From NCBI GenBank assembly GCA_964585475.1, contig CAZPDF010000005.1:3323-67322 (forward strand): 64,000 nt of DNA, in the 5' to 3' direction. This stretch comes from an uncultured Candidatus Saccharibacteria bacterium (lineage in GTDB: Bacteria; Patescibacteriota; Minisyncoccia; Sungbacterales; HO2-52-23). The number at the start of each line of letters is the position of its first letter. The stretch's first letter is position 1. A model generated the notes under the pieces. That model was not told the DNA's origin. It saw only the letters and a program-made list of their open reading frames with translations, and searched no databases. A program made the position numbers and the translations under genes. Positions 4,384 through 63,989 of this stretch are shown piece by piece.

Positions 4384-4550
4384 GTGACACTTTTTATATT
4401 TCTTCCCAACAACGTTCTTACATTCTCAAGTATGTTGGTATGTTTTTATCTCCCATGACACATTTTATATTTCTTTCTGGACTATTCGCTTATTCGTACG
4501 AATAAGCGAATAGTCTCCCACATCGCATGACACTTTTTATATTTTTTTTC
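4381..4550. repeat. def-fmt intergenic array: three ~25-bp direct repeats (catgacacWttttatatttctt) at ~73-bp spacing plus a perfect 32-bp palindrome (4482-4513)
   Basis: Copies lie at about 4381, 4454 and 4526. The first contains the fmt ATG. The palindrome is ctattcgcttattcgta|cgaataagcgaatag. Confidence 0.7.
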
Positions 4551-23563: not shown

Positions 23564-23599
23564 TCACTAAAGTTTTGACGATCGTCAAAACTTTAGTGA
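23564..23599. repeat. perfect 36-bp palindrome tcactaaagttttgacga|tcgtcaaaactttagtga
   Basis: Seen directly between the terminator and the gltX 3' end. Confidence 0.8.
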
Positions 23600-33189: not shown

Positions 33190-33255
33190 GATTAGGCGTT
33201 CTCCTTATCTTTACCCGGTAGTAGTCGTCGACAACATTCGTCTTTTGTCGAGCAC

Positions 33256-33822
33256 TCAACGTATTGAGTGCTCGACAGTCGAAGAGTTACTACCGGGCTT
33301 AGTTTCAAATATTTCCATCTTTTCTTTTTCAAATTCGGTAAAATGCGGCAGTTCTTGAATGCGAGTAACCCCGAGATACTTCAAAAATTCGGCACCTACG
33401 CTATAAAGATACGACCGGGCGTCTTTGGGGTTATCTATCCGTTCCACCAGCCCCCGCATTAAAAGATTTCGAAGGGTAAAGGATGAATTAACGCCCCGGA
33501 TGTATTCAACCTCGGCTCGGGTCAGCGGCCCCTTATAAGCGATAATGCTCAAGGTCTCCAAAGCCGCTCGGGAAAGTTCTTCCGTAAACTCGTTTTTTAC
33601 GAGATCCTCCACATAGCGGGAATTTTCCGGACTTGAACCGAGCTGCCATTTGTCTTCATGGCGGATTAGCGTAAAACCGCGATTGGCATAGTCCCCGGCA
33701 AGTTCTTCAAGGGCGGAGACCACCTCTTCTTTTTTTGCTTTGGTGATTTTGGCAAGCTTTTCCAAAGCCAGCGCCTCCCCGTGGACGAAAAGAATTGTTT
33801 CGAGTATGGATTTAAGGGCCAT
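33256..33822 (-). CDS. scpB: segregation and condensation protein B
   Basis: ILETILFVHGEAL winged-helix signature in 188 aa, adjacent to scpA. Confidence 0.85.
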   Translation of the reverse strand: MALKSILETILFVHGEALALEKLAKITKAKKEEVVSALEELAGDYANRGFTLIRHEDKWQLGSSPENSRYVEDLVKNEFTEELSRAALETLSIIAYKGPLTRAEVEYIRGVNSSFTLRNLLMRGLVERIDNPKDARSYLYSVGAEFLKYLGVTRIQELPHFTEFEKEKMEIFETKPGSNSSTVEHSIR

Positions 33823-57327: not shown

Positions 57328-57457
57328 AAAACGTGCGGCCAAGAAAAAGCGTAGAAAGTACCCCATAAGCGGGCATTCGGTTTTTCTCATTCAAAAACTG
57401 CAACACAAAACGCGTCGGTGATCACCGACGCGTTTTGTAAAGTTTTATGGTTTAATG

Positions 57458-58724: not shown

Positions 58725-59732
58725 TTAATTTAACTTAGCCGGTTTGGGTGTGGCAAGCGCTATCCGTTCCACCATCAATTGTTCCCCGCGGCGTGAGAGT
58801 ATTCCTAAAGTCAGCATAAGTTTCACCGACGCAAACGTCGTAAGAAGCGCCAAATAATATAGCGGTATGGTGAGAGTTTTCAGCGCAAAGAAAAATGTAA
58901 CGGCGGCAGCGTAGGGAAGAAATACTTTGTATGGCCCGAGCAGGGTTTCCAGACGTTGGGTAAGAGCAGTATAGAAGATATCCGCGATTTGCTCCTTACC
59001 GCTTAGTTTAAGGCCAAAGTTTTTGGCGAATTCATCGCGCTGCGCCAAAATTAATTTCTCAAACTCAATTTTGGATATTGAACCAAGAGGTATTTTTTGC
59101 GCCTCGAACTGCTCCACGAGAAGCTGCCTGATAGCTTCATCCACGGTTGCGTTAAGATCAAGACCCTGAAGCCCGCCCAGAGACGTAAGCGATTTTCCAA
59201 AAACTTCGAGTGCTGCCGTAAACGCGGATTTCGGAAAAATAGCTACGATGGCTTTATCTTCGGGGATAGCGCCCAAGAAAAAAACCGAAACAATAATTGA
59301 GAAGGCAGTAAAATATATCGGAAGGCCGGATTTCAGAAATTTGGTTATGCTGAATCCGAGCGATAACTCATACTCTTCGTGTATGCGAAACGCGGCAAAT
59401 GCCGCAAGCAGAATGCCCAAGGCCAGCGCTCCTAACGCTGCGCCCGATGGCGGCATAAAAAAATATGCTAAAGCCATGCTCGCGACAACGGCCGGATAAA
59501 GAACGTACTTTCCTTTTATAAAAAGAGCGCCAAGTGAAAAAAATAAAGCCGCAAGAACGAGAGTTGCGATCGAAGCAAGATATACAGTCGCCGTCCCGAA
59601 TTCCCCGGCAACGATTTGAGGCGCCACGTCCTGCCACAACCAAAATGCAACGGCGCTGGTGGAAACAGCAAGAAACGCGAGAATAAGTTCTTTGAGATTA
59701 AAGTTCAAGGTATGGGTGATATCCCTCAACAT
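58725..59732 (-). CDS. hypothetical integral membrane protein
   Basis: 335 aa with multiple TM helices. It sits between dnaK and dnaJ. Confidence 0.4.
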   Translation of the reverse strand: MLRDITHTLNFNLKELILAFLAVSTSAVAFWLWQDVAPQIVAGEFGTATVYLASIATLVLAALFFSLGALFIKGKYVLYPAVVASMALAYFFMPPSGAALGALALGILLAAFAAFRIHEEYELSLGFSITKFLKSGLPIYFTAFSIIVSVFFLGAIPEDKAIVAIFPKSAFTAALEVFGKSLTSLGGLQGLDLNATVDEAIRQLLVEQFEAQKIPLGSISKIEFEKLILAQRDEFAKNFGLKLSGKEQIADIFYTALTQRLETLLGPYKVFLPYAAAVTFFFALKTLTIPLYYLALLTTFASVKLMLTLGILSRRGEQLMVERIALATPKPAKLN

Positions 59733-59738
59733 TTTTTT

Positions 59739-59915
59739 CTATTTCTTCCAATCCGAAATTGCCACACGGTTTTTGCCGAGCGACTTTACCACGACCTTTT
59801 GGCGTTCTTGCCAGCCGAGATTACGGATGATCGAGGTTGGTATCGTAATATAGTACGTTCCTTTGGAGCGCTGGATATTTCGAACGTGATGTTTATAGAG
59901 TTTTCTTCGGGCCAT
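59739..59915 (-). CDS. AbrB/MazE/SpoVT-family small DNA-binding protein (58 aa; below ORF-track cutoff)
   Basis: Manual translation gives MARRKLYKHHVRNIQRSKGTYYITIPTSIIRNLGWQERQKVVVKSLGKNRVAISDWKK. It has the swapped-hairpin signature (ItIP..iR..lG...g..V). Confidence 0.45.
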   Translation of the reverse strand: MARRKLYKHHVRNIQRSKGTYYITIPTSIIRNLGWQERQKVVVKSLGKNRVAISDWKK

Positions 59916-59926
59916 ACACCTATGAT

Positions 59927-59972
59927 AAAAGAATCCTAGTCAGAATCCTAGGATTCTGACTAGGATTCTTTT
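59927..59972. repeat. perfect 46-bp palindrome aaaagaatcctagtcagaatccta|ggattctgactaggattctttt
   Basis: Seen directly, immediately 3' of the dnaK stop. It may act as a bidirectional terminator or attenuator. Confidence 0.8.
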
Positions 59973-59983
59973 GATGTTCCGCT

Positions 59984-61876
59984 CTACTCCTTTTTATCTT
60001 CGTCTTTTTTCTTCTCTTCAAATTCTGCCTCTTTGACGTCTCCCTCTTTTTTCTCTCCTTCGCCGCCCGCACCCGCCTGTTTATATAGTACCTCGCCAAT
60101 CTTTTGCAGTGAAGTTGAAAGATCCTGGCTCGCACGCTTAATCGCCTCGCCATCGCTGTTGTCTTTCACGCTTTTCAAAGCGCTGATTTTTGCCTCGATT
60201 TCGTTTTTTAGTTCAGCGCTGACCTTATCTCCCGCATCTCTCAATGCCTTCTCAGCAGTATAAATAAGCGTATCCGCTATGTTTTTACCCTCAATCAGTT
60301 CCCGCTTCTTGCGATCCTCCTCCGCATGAAGTTCGGCATCCTTCTTCATCTTCTCAATTTCCTCCTTGGAGAGAGAAGTTGAGGCCTCAATTCTAACCGA
60401 CTGCTCTTTTCCGGTGGCCTTGTCCCTGGCCTTTACGGATAAGACACCGTTCGCATCAATATCAAACGCCACCTCAACTTGAGGCATGCCTCTTGGAGCT
60501 GTCGGAATCCCATCTAAAATGAATCTTGCCAGAGTTTTATTGTTTTCAGCCATTTCGCGCTCGCCCTGCAAAACATGAATTTCAACCGAGGTTTGATTGT
60601 CGGCTGCGGTTGAAAAAACTTGGGATTTTGCCGTAGGAACGGTGGTATTTTTCTCAATGATTTTGGTCATAACACCGCCAAGGGTTTCGATTCCGAGCGA
60701 TAAGGGGGTCACATCCAGAAGCAATACGTCTTTTACTTCTCCCTGCAATATACCCGCTTGGATCGCAGCGCCGATCGCCACCACCTCATCCGGGTTGATA
60801 GTACGATTGGGTTCTTTGCCAACAAGCTTTTTTACTGCATCAATTATGGCCGGCATCCGGGTTTGCCCTCCCACCAATATTATCTCGTCAATGTCGGCCA
60901 TGGGAAAACCGGAGTCCTTGATGACTTGCCTGGTAATTTCGACTGATTTATCAATCATATCTCTTACTAATTCCTCCAGTTTTGCCCGGCTGAATTTCAT
61001 CACCAGATGCTTAGGACCGGATTCGTCGGAAGTTATGAAGGGAAGATTGATTTCTGTCTCGGGGGTGGTGGAAAGTTCATGTTTTGCTTTTTCGGCAGAT
61101 TCTTTAAGGCGTTGGAGCGCCAGAGTATCTTTGGATAAATCAATTCCCTGATCCTTCTTAAACTCCTCCACGATCCATTTGATTATCCGCTGATCAAAAT
61201 CGTCTCCTCCCAGATGCGTATCGCCGCCTACTGCTTTTACTTCGATCGTATCTTCGGTAACTTCCAGCACCGAGAGGTCAAAAGTTCCTCCCCCGAAGTC
61301 GTACACTACGATTTGTTCGTTCTTTTTCTTGTTGAATCCGTAAGCCAGAGCCGCCGCAGTCGGCTCATTCAAGATCCGGCGTACTTTAAATCCGGCAATT
61401 TCTCCGGCGGCCTGCGTGGCTTTTCTTTGCGAGTCATCAAAATAAGCCGGCACGGTGATCACCGCCTCGGTTATTTTTTCCCCGAGCTTATCCTCGGCAT
61501 CATGCTTCAATTTTTGGAGCACCATGGCGGAGATTTCTTCAGGGCGATATGCCTTGTCGCCCATTTTTATCTCAACTCCGTTGTTGGCCGTCTCTTTTAA
61601 TTCATACGGAAGCCACTCTTTATCGCGCTTTACTTCCTTATCGCTAAATTTCCGTCCGATAAGGCGTTTAACGGAAAAAAGGGTGTTCTTTGGATTGGTC
61701 ACGGCCTGCCTTTTGGCTAAAAGGCCCGCTAGGCGATCGCCAGATTTTGAGATCGCGACAATTGAGGGAGTCGTACGATTCCCCTCTTTACTTTCTATTA
61801 TTTTCGGTTCGCCATGTTCAATCACGGCCATGGCGGAATTGGTAGTGCCGAGATCGATTCCTAAGATTTTGGGCAT
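59984..61876 (-). CDS. dnaK: molecular chaperone DnaK (Hsp70)
   Basis: [18 protein letters not shown], a substrate-binding domain, and an acidic C-terminal tail. Confidence 0.95.
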
Positions 61877-62068: not shown

Positions 62069-62278
62069 ATGTGGGTTGCTGGAGGAATATTCTTTATACT
62101 ACTCGGGTTTCTTCTCTTCTGGGTGAGTGCCTTAGCGCATATTCCATTCCTCATGAAGGGGGTACTTATCGGATATGGTGCTATCTTCATTAGCGGAGCA
62201 ACTGGCATCATGTCCGAAAGGATATACAAACGCCTTCTTATCAAATCTCAATCCGTAAATCGTTCTTTGGAAAAATAG
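62069..62278 (+). CDS. hypothetical small membrane protein
   Basis: 69 aa with two hydrophobic helices. It is wedged between grpE and dnaK on the opposite strand. Confidence 0.3.
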   Translation: MWVAGGIFFILLGFLLFWVSALAHIPFLMKGVLIGYGAIFISGATGIMSERIYKRLLIKSQSVNRSLEK

Positions 62279-62280
62279 CC

Positions 62281-62640
62281 ATGTGGCCATCTTCTTCCAC
62301 CACTCCGAAACTCGATTGGATGGGGCATAAATTCATGCTGGTGACATCCATGCCGTTCTATCCCCATGGGCATCTTTATCCCGGCACGATTGTCACGACA
62401 ACCGGCAGGTTCTCTTCGGCGCTCAAAGATCCTGAATGTAAAAATATCAAACCATTAGATCCCCGACTCCTATATATCGGCATAACTCGCCCCGTTCGAA
62501 CTGGGGATGAGGTAGGACTCTCGGAAAACGAATGGCTGCGGGTAGTAGATCTTCTAAACTCAAACCAGGCAATTCCGGTCATCCTTGAATTTAACCAGAG
62601 GTCAGCTGAAAAACGGTTAAAAGCCTTGTTTCTATCTTAA
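62281..62640 (+). CDS. hypothetical protein
   Basis: 119-aa ORF immediately following the small membrane ORF. Confidence 0.3.
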   Translation: MWPSSSTTPKLDWMGHKFMLVTSMPFYPHGHLYPGTIVTTTGRFSSALKDPECKNIKPLDPRLLYIGITRPVRTGDEVGLSENEWLRVVDLLNSNQAIPVILEFNQRSAEKRLKALFLS

Positions 62641-63962: not shown

Positions 63963-63989
63963 TTAGCACTCCCATGTCAAGAGTGCTAA
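63963..63989. promoter_or_regulatory. CIRCE operator upstream of hrcA-grpE-dnaK
   Basis: Perfect TTAGCACTC-N9-GAGTGCTAA. Confidence 0.85.

What the first reader, a model, noticed from the sequence alone, without database searches (positions are those of the whole stretch)
59739..59972. Unannotated 58-aa AbrB/SpoVT-like gene and 46-bp perfect palindrome between dnaK and dnaJ
Manual translation of the minus strand gives a clean AbrB-type swapped-hairpin protein (…YYITIPTSIIRNLGW…VVV…). It is followed, towards dnaK, by an exceptionally long perfect palindrome (23-bp arms). A small transition-state-like regulator inserted into the hrcA-grpE-dnaK-dnaJ heat-shock operon could add a second regulatory layer. 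It lies together with a membrane protein and two opposite-strand ORFs between grpE and dnaK. The palindrome may terminate or attenuate after dnaK.
Basis: partly seen in the sequence, partly recalled or inferred. Interest (0 to 1): 0.55.

Follow-up and report, generated by a model that had tools for sequence, protein, structure and literature searches.

The report
Self-regulated AbrB-like gene cassette after dnaK
A tiny uncalled gene for an AbrB-type DNA-binding protein, together with a perfect 46-bp palindrome that is most likely its own operator, has been inserted between dnaK and the next gene; it belongs to a widespread, unstudied family of such gene-plus-palindrome modules in Patescibacteria (CPR bacteria).

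Summary
Both observations are real. The 58-aa ORF lies at 59915-59739 on the minus strand. The perfect 46-bp palindrome, with 23-bp arms and no loop, lies at 59927-59972.

The ORF is a genuine gene. It belongs to a family of about 58-aa proteins with 304 clusters at 50% identity, almost all from Patescibacteria. Family members hit Pfam PF04014, the family profile hits the AbrB N-domain, and the model has the beta-beta-alpha-beta-beta fold.

The palindrome belongs to the small gene, not to dnaK. Homologues in unrelated contexts carry the same element just upstream of the start codon: three CTAG cores spaced 12 bp apart inside a usually perfect palindrome. The centre sits 31-38 bp before the ATG. 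A -10-like hexamer ends 6-7 nt before the ATG, which suggests a leaderless mRNA. More distant subfamilies have 12-bp-phased direct repeats with other cores that cannot form hairpins. This points to a protein operator rather than an RNA structure.

No toxin or other conserved partner gene exists. Relatives have dnaK directly abutting the membrane-protein gene, so the 251-bp module is a lineage-specific insertion. A conserved heat-shock role is not supported. A secondary terminator role after dnaK remains possible.

The parts
59739..59915 (-). 58-aa gene for a single-domain AbrB/MazE/SpoVT-fold DNA-binding protein (stop codon included). It has no C-terminal extension.
   Evidence: ORF. The family has 304 clusters at 50% identity. 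49 of 56 members hit PF04014. The profile hits AbrB-N 1z0r at E 0.0025. AF2 model: pLDDT 80.9, beta-beta-alpha-beta-beta. Foldseek top hits are MazE, SpoVT, AbrB and VapB. It is the only family member in the window.
59927..59972 (.). Perfect 46-bp palindrome, read as the operator of the small gene. It is three 12-bp-phased units with CTAG cores at 59936-59939, 59948-59951 and 59960-59963. The central CTAG lies about -36 to -33 from the ATG. It may also act as a hairpin terminator for dnaK.
   Evidence: The same CTAG-N8-CTAG-N8-CTAG palindrome sits upstream of homologues in 9 distinct operators, 7 of them perfect over 36 bp. CTAG-N8-CTAG occurs nowhere else in the window.
59922..59927 (-). -10-like hexamer TATCAT, 6 nt upstream of the ATG. 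This predicts a transcription start at the A of the start codon (59915), i.e. a leaderless mRNA.
   Evidence: Read from the sequence. In the same protein subclass, 9 of 13 genome loci have a -10-like hexamer ending 6-7 nt before the ATG. In the dereplicated set, 18 of 23 have one at 5-8 nt. Shine-Dalgarno-like motifs are rare (4 of 69). This is an inference, not shown experimentally.
59733..59983 (-). The 251-bp segment between the dnaK stop and the membrane-gene ATG that relatives lack: 11-nt linker, palindrome, promoter, small gene, 6-nt gap.
   Evidence: In L073 the dnaK stop and the membrane-gene start are 12 nt apart. In L074 they overlap by 14 nt. Window sequence.
58725..59732 (-). Downstream 335-aa membrane-protein gene (no Pfam hit). 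It starts 6 nt after the small gene's stop and is probably co-transcribed with it. It is ancestrally the gene directly after dnaK.

Best explanation
The 58-aa ORF encodes a solitary, single-domain AbrB-fold DNA-binding protein. It belongs to a large Patescibacteria-wide family.

The 46-bp palindrome is most likely its own operator. It consists of three 12-bp-phased units with CTAG cores, related by a dyad through the central CTAG. Several symmetric dimers probably bind it side by side. The array is centred on the -35 region of the gene's own promoter, whose -10-like hexamer TATCAT sits 6 nt before the ATG, so the mRNA would be leaderless. Occupancy would therefore feed back on the gene's own transcription, most likely as repression. 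It would also affect the membrane-protein gene that starts 6 nt downstream, and possibly dnaJ.

The whole 251-bp unit (operator, promoter, gene) was inserted into an ancestral dnaK-membrane-dnaJ operon in this lineage. It is not a conserved component of the heat-shock regulon.

Shown here: the fold and family, the association of the palindrome with the gene, the 12-bp phasing, the geometry, and the insertion. Inferred: DNA binding by this protein, the sign of regulation, the leaderless start, and co-transcription.
For: Family and fold.

The palindrome travels with the gene:
- The closest homologues lie after secA (L001/L005), next to a divergent gene (L003) and at a contig end (L004). Each has a perfect palindrome of the same CTAG-N8-CTAG-N8-CTAG design 15-24 nt before the ATG.
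- The triple-CTAG pattern occurs exactly once in 11 of 157 fetched loci, always immediately upstream of the gene.

Enrichment: perfect arms of 10 bp or more occur in 28 of 67 upstream 80-nt regions, against 20 of 1793 control segments.

Phasing: self-match at lag 12 is 0.419, against 0.26-0.34 at other lags and 0.288 in controls.

Protein operator rather than hairpin: distant members carry 2-4 direct 12-bp repeats (TAAGTAAC or TAAGTAATT cores; L031, L038, L059, L066) that cannot form a hairpin.

Operator core tracks protein subclass:
- CTAG at 12-bp phasing occurs in 10 of 23 proteins with (V/I)R(N/S)(I/L)Q and in 0 of 94 others.
- TnnGTA cores occur only in the other class.
- L042 and L088 differ by two mirrored, fully compensatory changes around the central CTAG.

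Geometry: the palindrome centre lies 31-38 bp before the ATG in 10 of 12 cases. A -10-like hexamer lies 5-8 nt before the ATG in 18 of 23.

Insertion.

No partner gene.

Precedent: AbrB-fold proteins autoregulate at their own promoters. C68 of pSSVx is a single-domain example (PMC5569661). MazE and VapB antitoxins do the same (PMC4333400, PMC4803016).
Against: - There is no experimental evidence of binding, of a transcription start or of a transcript end.
- The window protein alone does not reach Pfam's gathering score.
- No good -35 hexamer exists 16-18 bp upstream of TATCAT (read from the sequence), so activation rather than repression is possible.
- Perfect symmetry over 36-46 bp is more than typical operators show. 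Spacer positions also co-vary, which would equally fit a nucleic-acid hairpin.
- A 12-bp repeat is off the 10.5-bp helical repeat.
- By my strict motif test, about half of the distant members show no phased repeat.
- The genome also uses other long perfect palindromes between genes, including likely terminators.
- The subclass-versus-core association is confounded by shared ancestry.
Confidence: 0.68

Rival explanations
1. The palindrome acts only as an RNA hairpin: an intrinsic, possibly bidirectional terminator or attenuator that ends the dnaK transcript. On this view its closeness to the small gene is incidental.
For: It starts 11 nt after the dnaK stop. It folds at -41.7 kcal/mol (z = -7.7) and is followed by UUUUAU. 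The terminator scan flags 10-pair sub-hairpins on both strands. The arms are flanked by A4 and T4, as in bidirectional terminators. The window has other perfect palindromes between convergent genes (23564-23599, 57405-57438). Mirrored positions co-vary.
Against: - Homologous palindromes occur where no co-directional gene ends upstream (L003).
- Several lack any T-run (L005, L007, L010, L088).
- Distant family members have non-hairpin direct repeats in the same place.
- The position is fixed relative to the small gene's ATG, not to the upstream stop codon.
- The stem is AT-rich, and the four U's are themselves paired with A4.
Confidence: 0.12
2. The palindrome is a DNA-level recombination or insertion site, such as a hairpin or cruciform recognised during mobilisation. 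The palindrome plus gene would then be a small selfish mobile cassette, and the protein would serve its mobility or maintenance rather than gene regulation.
For: The 251-bp unit is present here and absent from the same site in relatives. Family members sit in many unrelated contexts. One homologue lies next to a gene with a weak Y1-transposase hit. Perfect loopless palindromes are typical of structure-specific DNA transactions (general knowledge).
Against: - No recombinase or transposase is consistently nearby.
- I saw no obvious flanking direct repeats when reading the junction sequence.
- No solo palindromes or second copies exist in the 64-kb window.
- No relatives were found on viral contigs.
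- The AbrB fold has no known catalytic activity (general knowledge).
- The fixed promoter geometry fits a regulatory site.
Confidence: 0.1
3. The protein is an orphan MazE/VapB-type antitoxin left over from a degraded toxin-antitoxin module. The palindrome would be the old TA operator.
For: The best Pfam family is MazE_antitoxin. JGI names homologue P0002 an 'antitoxin component of MazEF'. The best structural match is MazE 1ub4_C. TA antitoxins autoregulate at palindromes (PMC4803016).
Against: - No toxin gene lies next to any of 69 genome loci. Downstream genes are ZIP, SDR, RadC, LexA-like and membrane proteins.
- The protein is only the DNA-binding domain, with no C-terminal toxin-binding tail.
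- The family is strongly conserved across Patescibacteria as a solitary gene, which is not expected of decaying remnants.
Confidence: 0.05
4. The protein is an abundant nucleoid-associated or chromatin-like AbrB-fold protein, like archaeal Sso7c4, with mostly non-specific DNA binding. The palindrome would be only a high-affinity autoregulatory site among many weak sites.
For: It is small and very basic and has a single domain. The profile and fold hits include the archaeal 'histone-like' AbrB-family proteins 5itm, 5itj and 2l66. Some MAGs carry two copies.
Against: Operator cores are sharply defined and track protein subclass, which argues for sequence-specific recognition. No expression data are available.
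Confidence: 0.05

Closest known systems
C68 of Sulfolobus plasmid-virus pSSVx, with C56 of pSSVi and Sso7c4-type archaeal AbrB-family proteins
   Same: These are solitary proteins of about 56-68 aa made of a single swapped-hairpin (AbrB-like) domain, with no C-terminal oligomerisation or toxin-binding domain. C68 binds sites in its own promoter (PMC5569661). They appear among the structural and profile hits (3o27, 7xi6, 5itm, 2l66).
   Different: They are archaeal or plasmid-viral, not bacterial. The C68 motif TATG(C/GG)TTTTC is not a phased triple palindrome. Sequence similarity to the window protein is marginal (E 0.01-0.4 at profile level).
Bacillus subtilis AbrB, Abh and SpoVT (transition-state regulators)
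   Same: They share the N-terminal DNA-binding fold and give the best sequence-profile match (1z0r, 2k1n, 1yfb at E about 0.003). The conserved Arg in strand 1 aligns: AbrB VRKV with family (I/V)R(K/N).
   Different: AbrB has a C-terminal multimerisation domain (about 94 aa in total) and binds many promoters without a strict consensus (general knowledge). This protein is 58 aa, and its putative site is highly regular and sequence-defined.
MazE/VapB-type (AbrB-fold) type II antitoxins
   Same: Same Pfam family, PF04014, and the best Foldseek hit (1ub4_C, TM 0.69). They show negative autoregulation at palindromic operators that overlap their own promoter (PMC4333400, PMC4803016).
   Different: There is no toxin gene and no toxin-binding tail.
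MraZ
   Same: This is an AbrB-related fold protein. It binds an array of phased short repeats just upstream of its own operon and autoregulates (general knowledge, not tested here).
   Different: MraZ has two fused domains and forms large rings. Its repeats are direct, with about 10-bp phasing. No sequence match to MraZ was seen in any search.

Membership tests
AbrB/MazE/SpoVT swapped-hairpin DNA-binding domain (Pfam PF04014, AbrB clan) | Demonstrable sequence homology to the domain profile | tested here: met
   The window protein alone is sub-threshold (E 0.013, 15.8 bits against GA 24.7). However, 49 of 56 aligned family members hit PF04014 at E<=0.01 (best 3e-11). The family profile hits AbrB-N 1z0r, 2k1n and 1yfb at E 0.0025-0.004. 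P0003 weakly hits TIGR01439.
AbrB/MazE/SpoVT swapped-hairpin DNA-binding domain (Pfam PF04014, AbrB clan) | beta1-beta2-alpha-beta3-beta4 topology of the half-barrel monomer | tested here: met
   AF2 model with pLDDT 80.9: E14-17, E20-23, H27-33, E41-46, E50-55. Of the 38 Foldseek matches listed, 29 are swapped-hairpin or related beta-barrel proteins, including 23 of the top 24 (MazE, SpoVT, AbrB-N, VapB, C56/C68, Sso7c4-like, RIFT). TM reaches 0.69 and rmsd 1.6-1.7 A over 46-48 residues, although E-values are weak for so small a protein.
AbrB/MazE/SpoVT swapped-hairpin DNA-binding domain (Pfam PF04014, AbrB clan) | Conserved basic residue in strand 1 and Pro at the start of the helix region, used for DNA contact | tested here: met
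   R12 is nearly invariant and P26 is invariant in the 56-sequence alignment. R12 aligns with the Arg of AbrB 'VRKV'. The role of that Arg in DNA contact is from the literature and was not tested.
AbrB/MazE/SpoVT swapped-hairpin DNA-binding domain (Pfam PF04014, AbrB clan) | Obligate homodimer forming the swapped-hairpin barrel; binds DNA | not testable with these tools
   Only monomer prediction is available, and no binding assay.
Type II toxin-antitoxin antitoxin (MazE/VapB type) | Adjacent cognate toxin gene (MazF/PemK, VapC PIN, etc.) | tested here: not met
   No conserved neighbour exists in 69 loci; the largest neighbour cluster covers 7 loci. The immediate downstream genes inspected are ZIP, SDR, RadC, LexA-like, membrane and other proteins. 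In the window the downstream gene is a 335-aa membrane protein.
Type II toxin-antitoxin antitoxin (MazE/VapB type) | C-terminal extension that binds and neutralises the toxin | tested here: not met
   The protein is 58 aa in total. The domain match spans residues 11-57. Family members are mostly 56-62 aa.
AbrB-type transition-state regulator (B. subtilis AbrB/Abh) | C-terminal multimerisation domain giving a tetramer | tested here: not met
   No sequence follows the N-domain.
Rho-independent terminator (for the palindrome) | Stable stem-loop directly followed by a U-tract, downstream of a gene end | tested here: inconclusive
   In the window a stable hairpin followed by UUUUAU lies 11 nt after the dnaK stop. 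However, the U's pair with A4 and the stem is AT-rich. Homologous palindromes lack T-runs (L005, L007, L088) or have no upstream co-directional gene (L003).
CIRCE/HrcA operator (for the palindrome) | TTAGCACTC-N9-GAGTGCTAA inverted repeat | tested here: not met
   The GCACTC-N7-11-GAGTGC pattern occurs only at 63966-63986 (upstream of hrcA) and 33252-33271, not at 59927-59972.

The most novel reading that the evidence does not exclude
The roughly 250-bp unit combines a perfect palindrome (serving as both insulator/terminator and operator), a leaderless promoter and an AbrB-like gene. It may be a self-contained, horizontally or intragenomically mobile 'regulatory cassette' of Patescibacteria. 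Such a cassette would insert in front of arbitrary genes, here splitting dnaK from the membrane-protein and dnaJ genes, and place them under its own feedback-controlled promoter. Its operators would be kept perfectly symmetric by hairpin-templated (quasipalindrome) correction. Their cores would co-evolve with recognition residues (N-I-Q with CTAG; K-L-T with TACGTA or TAAGTAA; Y-H with CGTACG).
Probability: 0.2. Interest if true: 0.7.

Novelty: new variant of a known kind. Interest (0 to 1): 0.45.

Why it matters
Patescibacteria have very few recognisable transcription factors, and almost nothing is known about how they regulate genes. Two literature searches for AbrB together with these phyla found no paper.

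This is a phylum-wide family with 304 clusters at 50% identity. The gene is often not called by gene finders. Each member carries an unusually legible putative operator next to itself. That yields many natural protein-and-site pairs for working out an AbrB-fold recognition code, and a testable model of a minimal autoregulated, leaderless promoter.

For this window specifically, the insertion separates dnaK from the two genes that follow it in relatives. It may therefore have rewired expression of dnaJ relative to the CIRCE/HrcA-controlled part of the operon.

It is not a fundamentally new mechanism. Autoregulation of AbrB-fold proteins at palindromes is well known.

Tried and rejected
- **Direct searches with the 58-aa protein.** These were nearly empty: Pfam was sub-threshold, NCBIfam found nothing and PDB phmmer returned only a chance L29 hit. 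The word-index protein search gave only 3 homologues. The family became visible only with the profile search.
- **Viral contigs.** No relatives were found, so a phage origin was not pursued.
- **Rfam.** Only sub-threshold miRNA-precursor look-alikes matched, as any long hairpin does. No known RNA family matches.
- **CIRCE/HrcA site.** Rejected.
- **Further operator copies as a hint of a regulon.** None exist in the 64-kb window.
- **Conserved neighbour or toxin.** None was found.
- **Spurious ORF.** Rejected on family size and conservation.
- **Assembly artefact.** Rejected. The flanks differ, an independent Logan assembly gives the same right arm and gene, and equivalent palindromes occur in many independent MAGs.
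- **First classification script.** My first regex for the protein subclass mis-assigned several sequences. It was corrected. The Fisher p-value should not be used, also because the classes are clades.
- **Overlapping ORF.** The 77-aa minus-strand ORF at 59920-60153, which overlaps the dnaK 3' end and the palindrome, has only a chance-level Pfam hit. I regard it as spurious.

Full report
**1.

The minus-strand ORF at 59915-59739 encodes 58 aa. The palindrome has two 23-nt arms, 59927-59949 and 59950-59972. The arms are 100% complementary with nothing between them.

Its internal structure is regular. AGAATCCTAG occurs twice directly and twice inverted, which places CTAG at 59936, 59948 and 59960, spaced 12 bp apart. 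The core pattern is not expected by chance: 0.00 matches in shuffles. Folded as RNA, the region has z = -7.7. It is the longest perfect palindrome in the window.

The minus-strand gene order is: hrcA, grpE, two plus-strand ORFs, dnaK, palindrome, small ORF, a 335-aa membrane-protein ORF, dnaJ. A canonical CIRCE element sits just upstream of hrcA at 63966-63986.

The ORF has indeed not been called by gene finders. The exact sequence is absent from the 15-billion-protein collection, while its neighbour from the same contig is present from NCBI, ENA and Logan.

**2. The ORF is a real gene of the AbrB fold**

- On its own the protein is sub-threshold against Pfam PF04014 (E 0.013, 15.8 bits against 24.7). 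It finds only three homologues by word search (59-69% identity).
- A profile built from these four sequences finds 304 representative clusters at E<=1e-3. Almost all are 55-65 aa and match end to end.
- In a 56-sequence alignment, P26 is invariant and R12, W35, Q39, K40, D55 and W56 are nearly invariant.
- 49 of the 56 members hit PF04014, with best E 3e-11.
- The family profile hits the AbrB N-domain structures at E about 0.003, and also archaeal AbrB-family proteins.
- The AlphaFold model (pLDDT 80.9) is beta-beta-alpha-beta-beta.
- Most of its Foldseek matches, including 23 of the top 24, are swapped-hairpin or related small barrel proteins: MazE, SpoVT, AbrB-N, VapB, C56/C68 and a Sulfolobus histone-like protein. 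TM reaches 0.69, but E-values are weak because the protein is so small.
- A scan of species-representative genomes found 67 loci. By record title most are Patescibacteria: Saccharibacteria, Nomura-, Colwell-, Uhr-, Moran-, Jorgensen-, Woese-, Sung- and Paceibacteria and others. About a fifth are labelled only 'bacterium' or carry other names such as uncultured Bdellovibrionales, Gammaproteobacteria or Planctomycetia.
- No relatives were found on viral contigs.

**3. The palindrome belongs to the small gene, not to dnaK**

The closest homologue lies after secA (L001/L005). The next lies beside a divergent gene and in front of a ZIP transporter (L003). A third sits at a contig end (L004). All three have a perfect palindrome of the same design 15-24 nt upstream of the ATG: CTAG-N8-CTAG-N8-CTAG. 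The N8 sequences differ between loci but stay complementary.

Across all 157 loci fetched, the triple-CTAG pattern occurs once in each of 11 loci, always immediately upstream of the gene. There are nine distinct operators, and seven are perfect over 36 bp. Twelve of the 18 mirrored positions vary, with 2-4 complementary pair types, and 157 of 162 cells are complementary. L042 and L088 are identical 42-bp palindromes except for two mirrored, fully compensatory changes next to the central CTAG.

Enrichment is strong. Perfect arms of 10 bp or more occur in 28 of 67 upstream regions, against 20 of 1793 control segments.

**4. It looks like a protein operator rather than an RNA hairpin**

- **Phasing is family-wide.** Self-match at lag 12 is 0.419, against 0.26-0.34 at other lags and 0.288 in controls.
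- **Some arrays cannot form hairpins.** In more distant members the array is 2-4 direct repeats. Examples are GTGTTAAGTAAC in two to three copies (L059, L066) and four 12-bp units in L031, three of them ending in TAAGTAATT. In L038 the array reaches the ATG. These cannot form a hairpin.
- **Some arrays are tandem palindromic units.** L015 has three copies of AAATACGTATTT. L129 has ATCACTAGTGAT, ATATCTAGATAT, ATCACTAGTGAT. This pattern is expected if a symmetric dimer binds each unit.
- **The core tracks the protein subclass.** CTAG phased at 12 bp occurs in 10 of 23 dereplicated proteins with (V/I)R(N/S)(I/L)Q in strand 1, and in 0 of 94 others. TACGTA, TAAGTA and TCAGTA cores occur only with IRK(L/I)T proteins. 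Three SYH-type proteins have CGTACG or CGTATG cores. Because the classes are clades, this is suggestive co-evolution, not an independent statistic.
- **The perfect symmetry has a plausible mutational source.** It exceeds what operators usually show. A known route is quasipalindrome template-switch mutation, which converts imperfect inverted repeats into perfect ones (PMC7202029). That link is my inference.

**5. Promoter geometry**

In the CTAG class the palindrome centre lies 31-38 bp before the ATG in 10 of 12 cases. A -10-like hexamer ends 6-7 nt before the ATG in 9 of 13 genome loci, with other offsets essentially empty. In the dereplicated set it lies at 5-8 nt in 18 of 23.

In the window the hexamer is TATCAT at 59927-59922, followed by AGGTGT and then the ATG. 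This puts +1 on the A of the start codon, so the mRNA would be leaderless. It also puts the central CTAG at about -36 to -33.

Shine-Dalgarno-like motifs are rare in front of these genes (4 of 69). This may explain why gene callers miss them.

No good -35 hexamer is present, so the site could in principle act positively. I favour repression by analogy with other AbrB-fold autoregulators (PMC4333400, PMC4803016, PMC5569661).

**6. Context**

No neighbour is conserved; the largest neighbour cluster covers 7 of 69 loci. Immediate downstream genes include ZIP, SDR, RadC (four times), LexA-like and others. There is no toxin and no C-terminal tail, so this is not an antitoxin. By my crude ORF calling, a same-strand ORF starts within about 25 nt of the stop in roughly 27 of 69 loci. 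The module may therefore often drive whatever lies behind it.

Homologues of the window's membrane protein (42-46% identity) include one annotated as Candidatus Sungbacteria. In the two with enough flanking sequence (L073, L074) the order is hrcA, grpE, an opposite-strand ORF, dnaK, membrane gene, dnaJ. There, dnaK and the membrane gene are 12 nt apart or overlap by 14 nt. The window has 251 bp there. The module is therefore a lineage-specific insertion into the operon, not a conserved heat-shock component.

**7. What remains open**

In this genome the hairpin sits 11 nt after the dnaK stop and is followed by TTTTAT. The window also has other long perfect palindromes between convergent genes. 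The element may therefore also terminate dnaK transcription and insulate the module. That would leave the membrane gene, and possibly dnaJ, under the module's promoter. Only transcript mapping can settle this. Rfam gives nothing meaningful.

**8. Comparison with what is known, and verdict**

The protein is a member of the AbrB/MazE/SpoVT domain superfamily. Homology through the family profile, the topology and the conserved Arg and Pro all fit.

It is not a MazE/VapB antitoxin, because it has no toxin and no tail. It is not an AbrB-type transition-state regulator, because it has no C-terminal domain.

Functionally it is closest to the solitary single-domain AbrB-like autoregulators such as C68 of pSSVx. 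In operator logic it also resembles MraZ, which uses phased repeats upstream of its own gene.

Four things appear to be undescribed: the bacterial CPR-wide family, the 3 x 12-bp perfectly symmetric operator centred on -35 of a leaderless promoter, the apparent core-to-subclass correspondence, and the cassette-like insertion. The two literature searches I ran for AbrB together with these phyla found no paper.

I rate it a new variant of a known kind, of moderate interest.

Noticed in passing
window 4480-4515, 23564-23599, 57405-57438: Three further perfect, loopless palindromes of 34-36 bp. One lies between def and fmt and has TATTCG half-sites at 8-bp spacing. One lies between a 95-aa ORF and a convergent tRNA-synthetase-like gene. 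One lies between the convergent uvrC and dnaJ genes and has the form A4, GC-rich stem, T4, so it is probably a bidirectional terminator. Long perfect palindromes seem to be a habit of this genome.
   Followed up: partly
window 63966-63986 and 33246-33277: A canonical CIRCE core (GCACTC-N9-GAGTGC) lies just upstream of hrcA. A second, CIRCE-like inverted repeat has an 8-nt spacer and sits inside a 14-bp-arm palindrome at about 33.25 kb. I presume it precedes another chaperone gene, but I did not check.
   Followed up: partly
window 58725-59732 (-); L073 4410-5357; L074 5001-5954: A 315-335-aa multi-pass membrane protein with no Pfam or NCBIfam hit is conserved between dnaK and dnaJ in this lineage. 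In relatives it is translationally coupled to dnaK. It is an uncharacterised member of the heat-shock operon.
   Followed up: partly
window 62069-62278 and 62281-62640 (+); L074 2436-2813; L073 2097-2348: Opposite-strand ORFs between grpE and dnaK are conserved in position in relatives. The 119-aa window ORF shows weak similarity to the L074 ORF (28% over 47 aa, E 2e-7). The 69-aa ORF has no match to the L073 ORF.
   Followed up: partly
L072 1-40 (Logan contig identical to the window): An independent assembly breaks exactly inside the palindrome, starting at GAATCCTAGGATTCTGACTAGG. The small ORF was not called on it. Palindromes of this kind fragment short-read assemblies, and leaderless mini-genes escape gene callers.
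   Followed up: yes
L031, L038, L059, L066, L017 (upstream of the family gene): In the IRK(L/I)T subclass the array is up to four direct 12-bp units with TAAGTAA(C/T), TCAGTAAC or TACGTAAT cores. It sometimes runs right up to the ATG, and a TATAAT box lies upstream of the array in L026, L027, L028 and L054. The operator therefore lies downstream of the -10 box there, a different geometry from the CTAG class.
   Followed up: partly
L078, L080, L014/L093: Family members with S-Y-H instead of (S/T)-Y-Y in strand 2 have CGTACG or CGTATG cores at 12-bp phasing instead of CTAG. This may be a specificity determinant. The sample is only three lineages.
   Followed up: no
L003 93-788 and 790-815: Next to one homologue lies a divergent gene with a weak Y1-transposase (PF01797) hit. 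A separate 10-bp-arm hairpin, ATTCGAAACC-G-GGTTTCGAAT, lies in the shared intergenic region.
   Followed up: no
L026, L028, L059, L064 (downstream genes): A RadC-like gene directly follows the AbrB-like gene in four loci. This is the most frequent downstream partner seen, though still a small minority.
   Followed up: no
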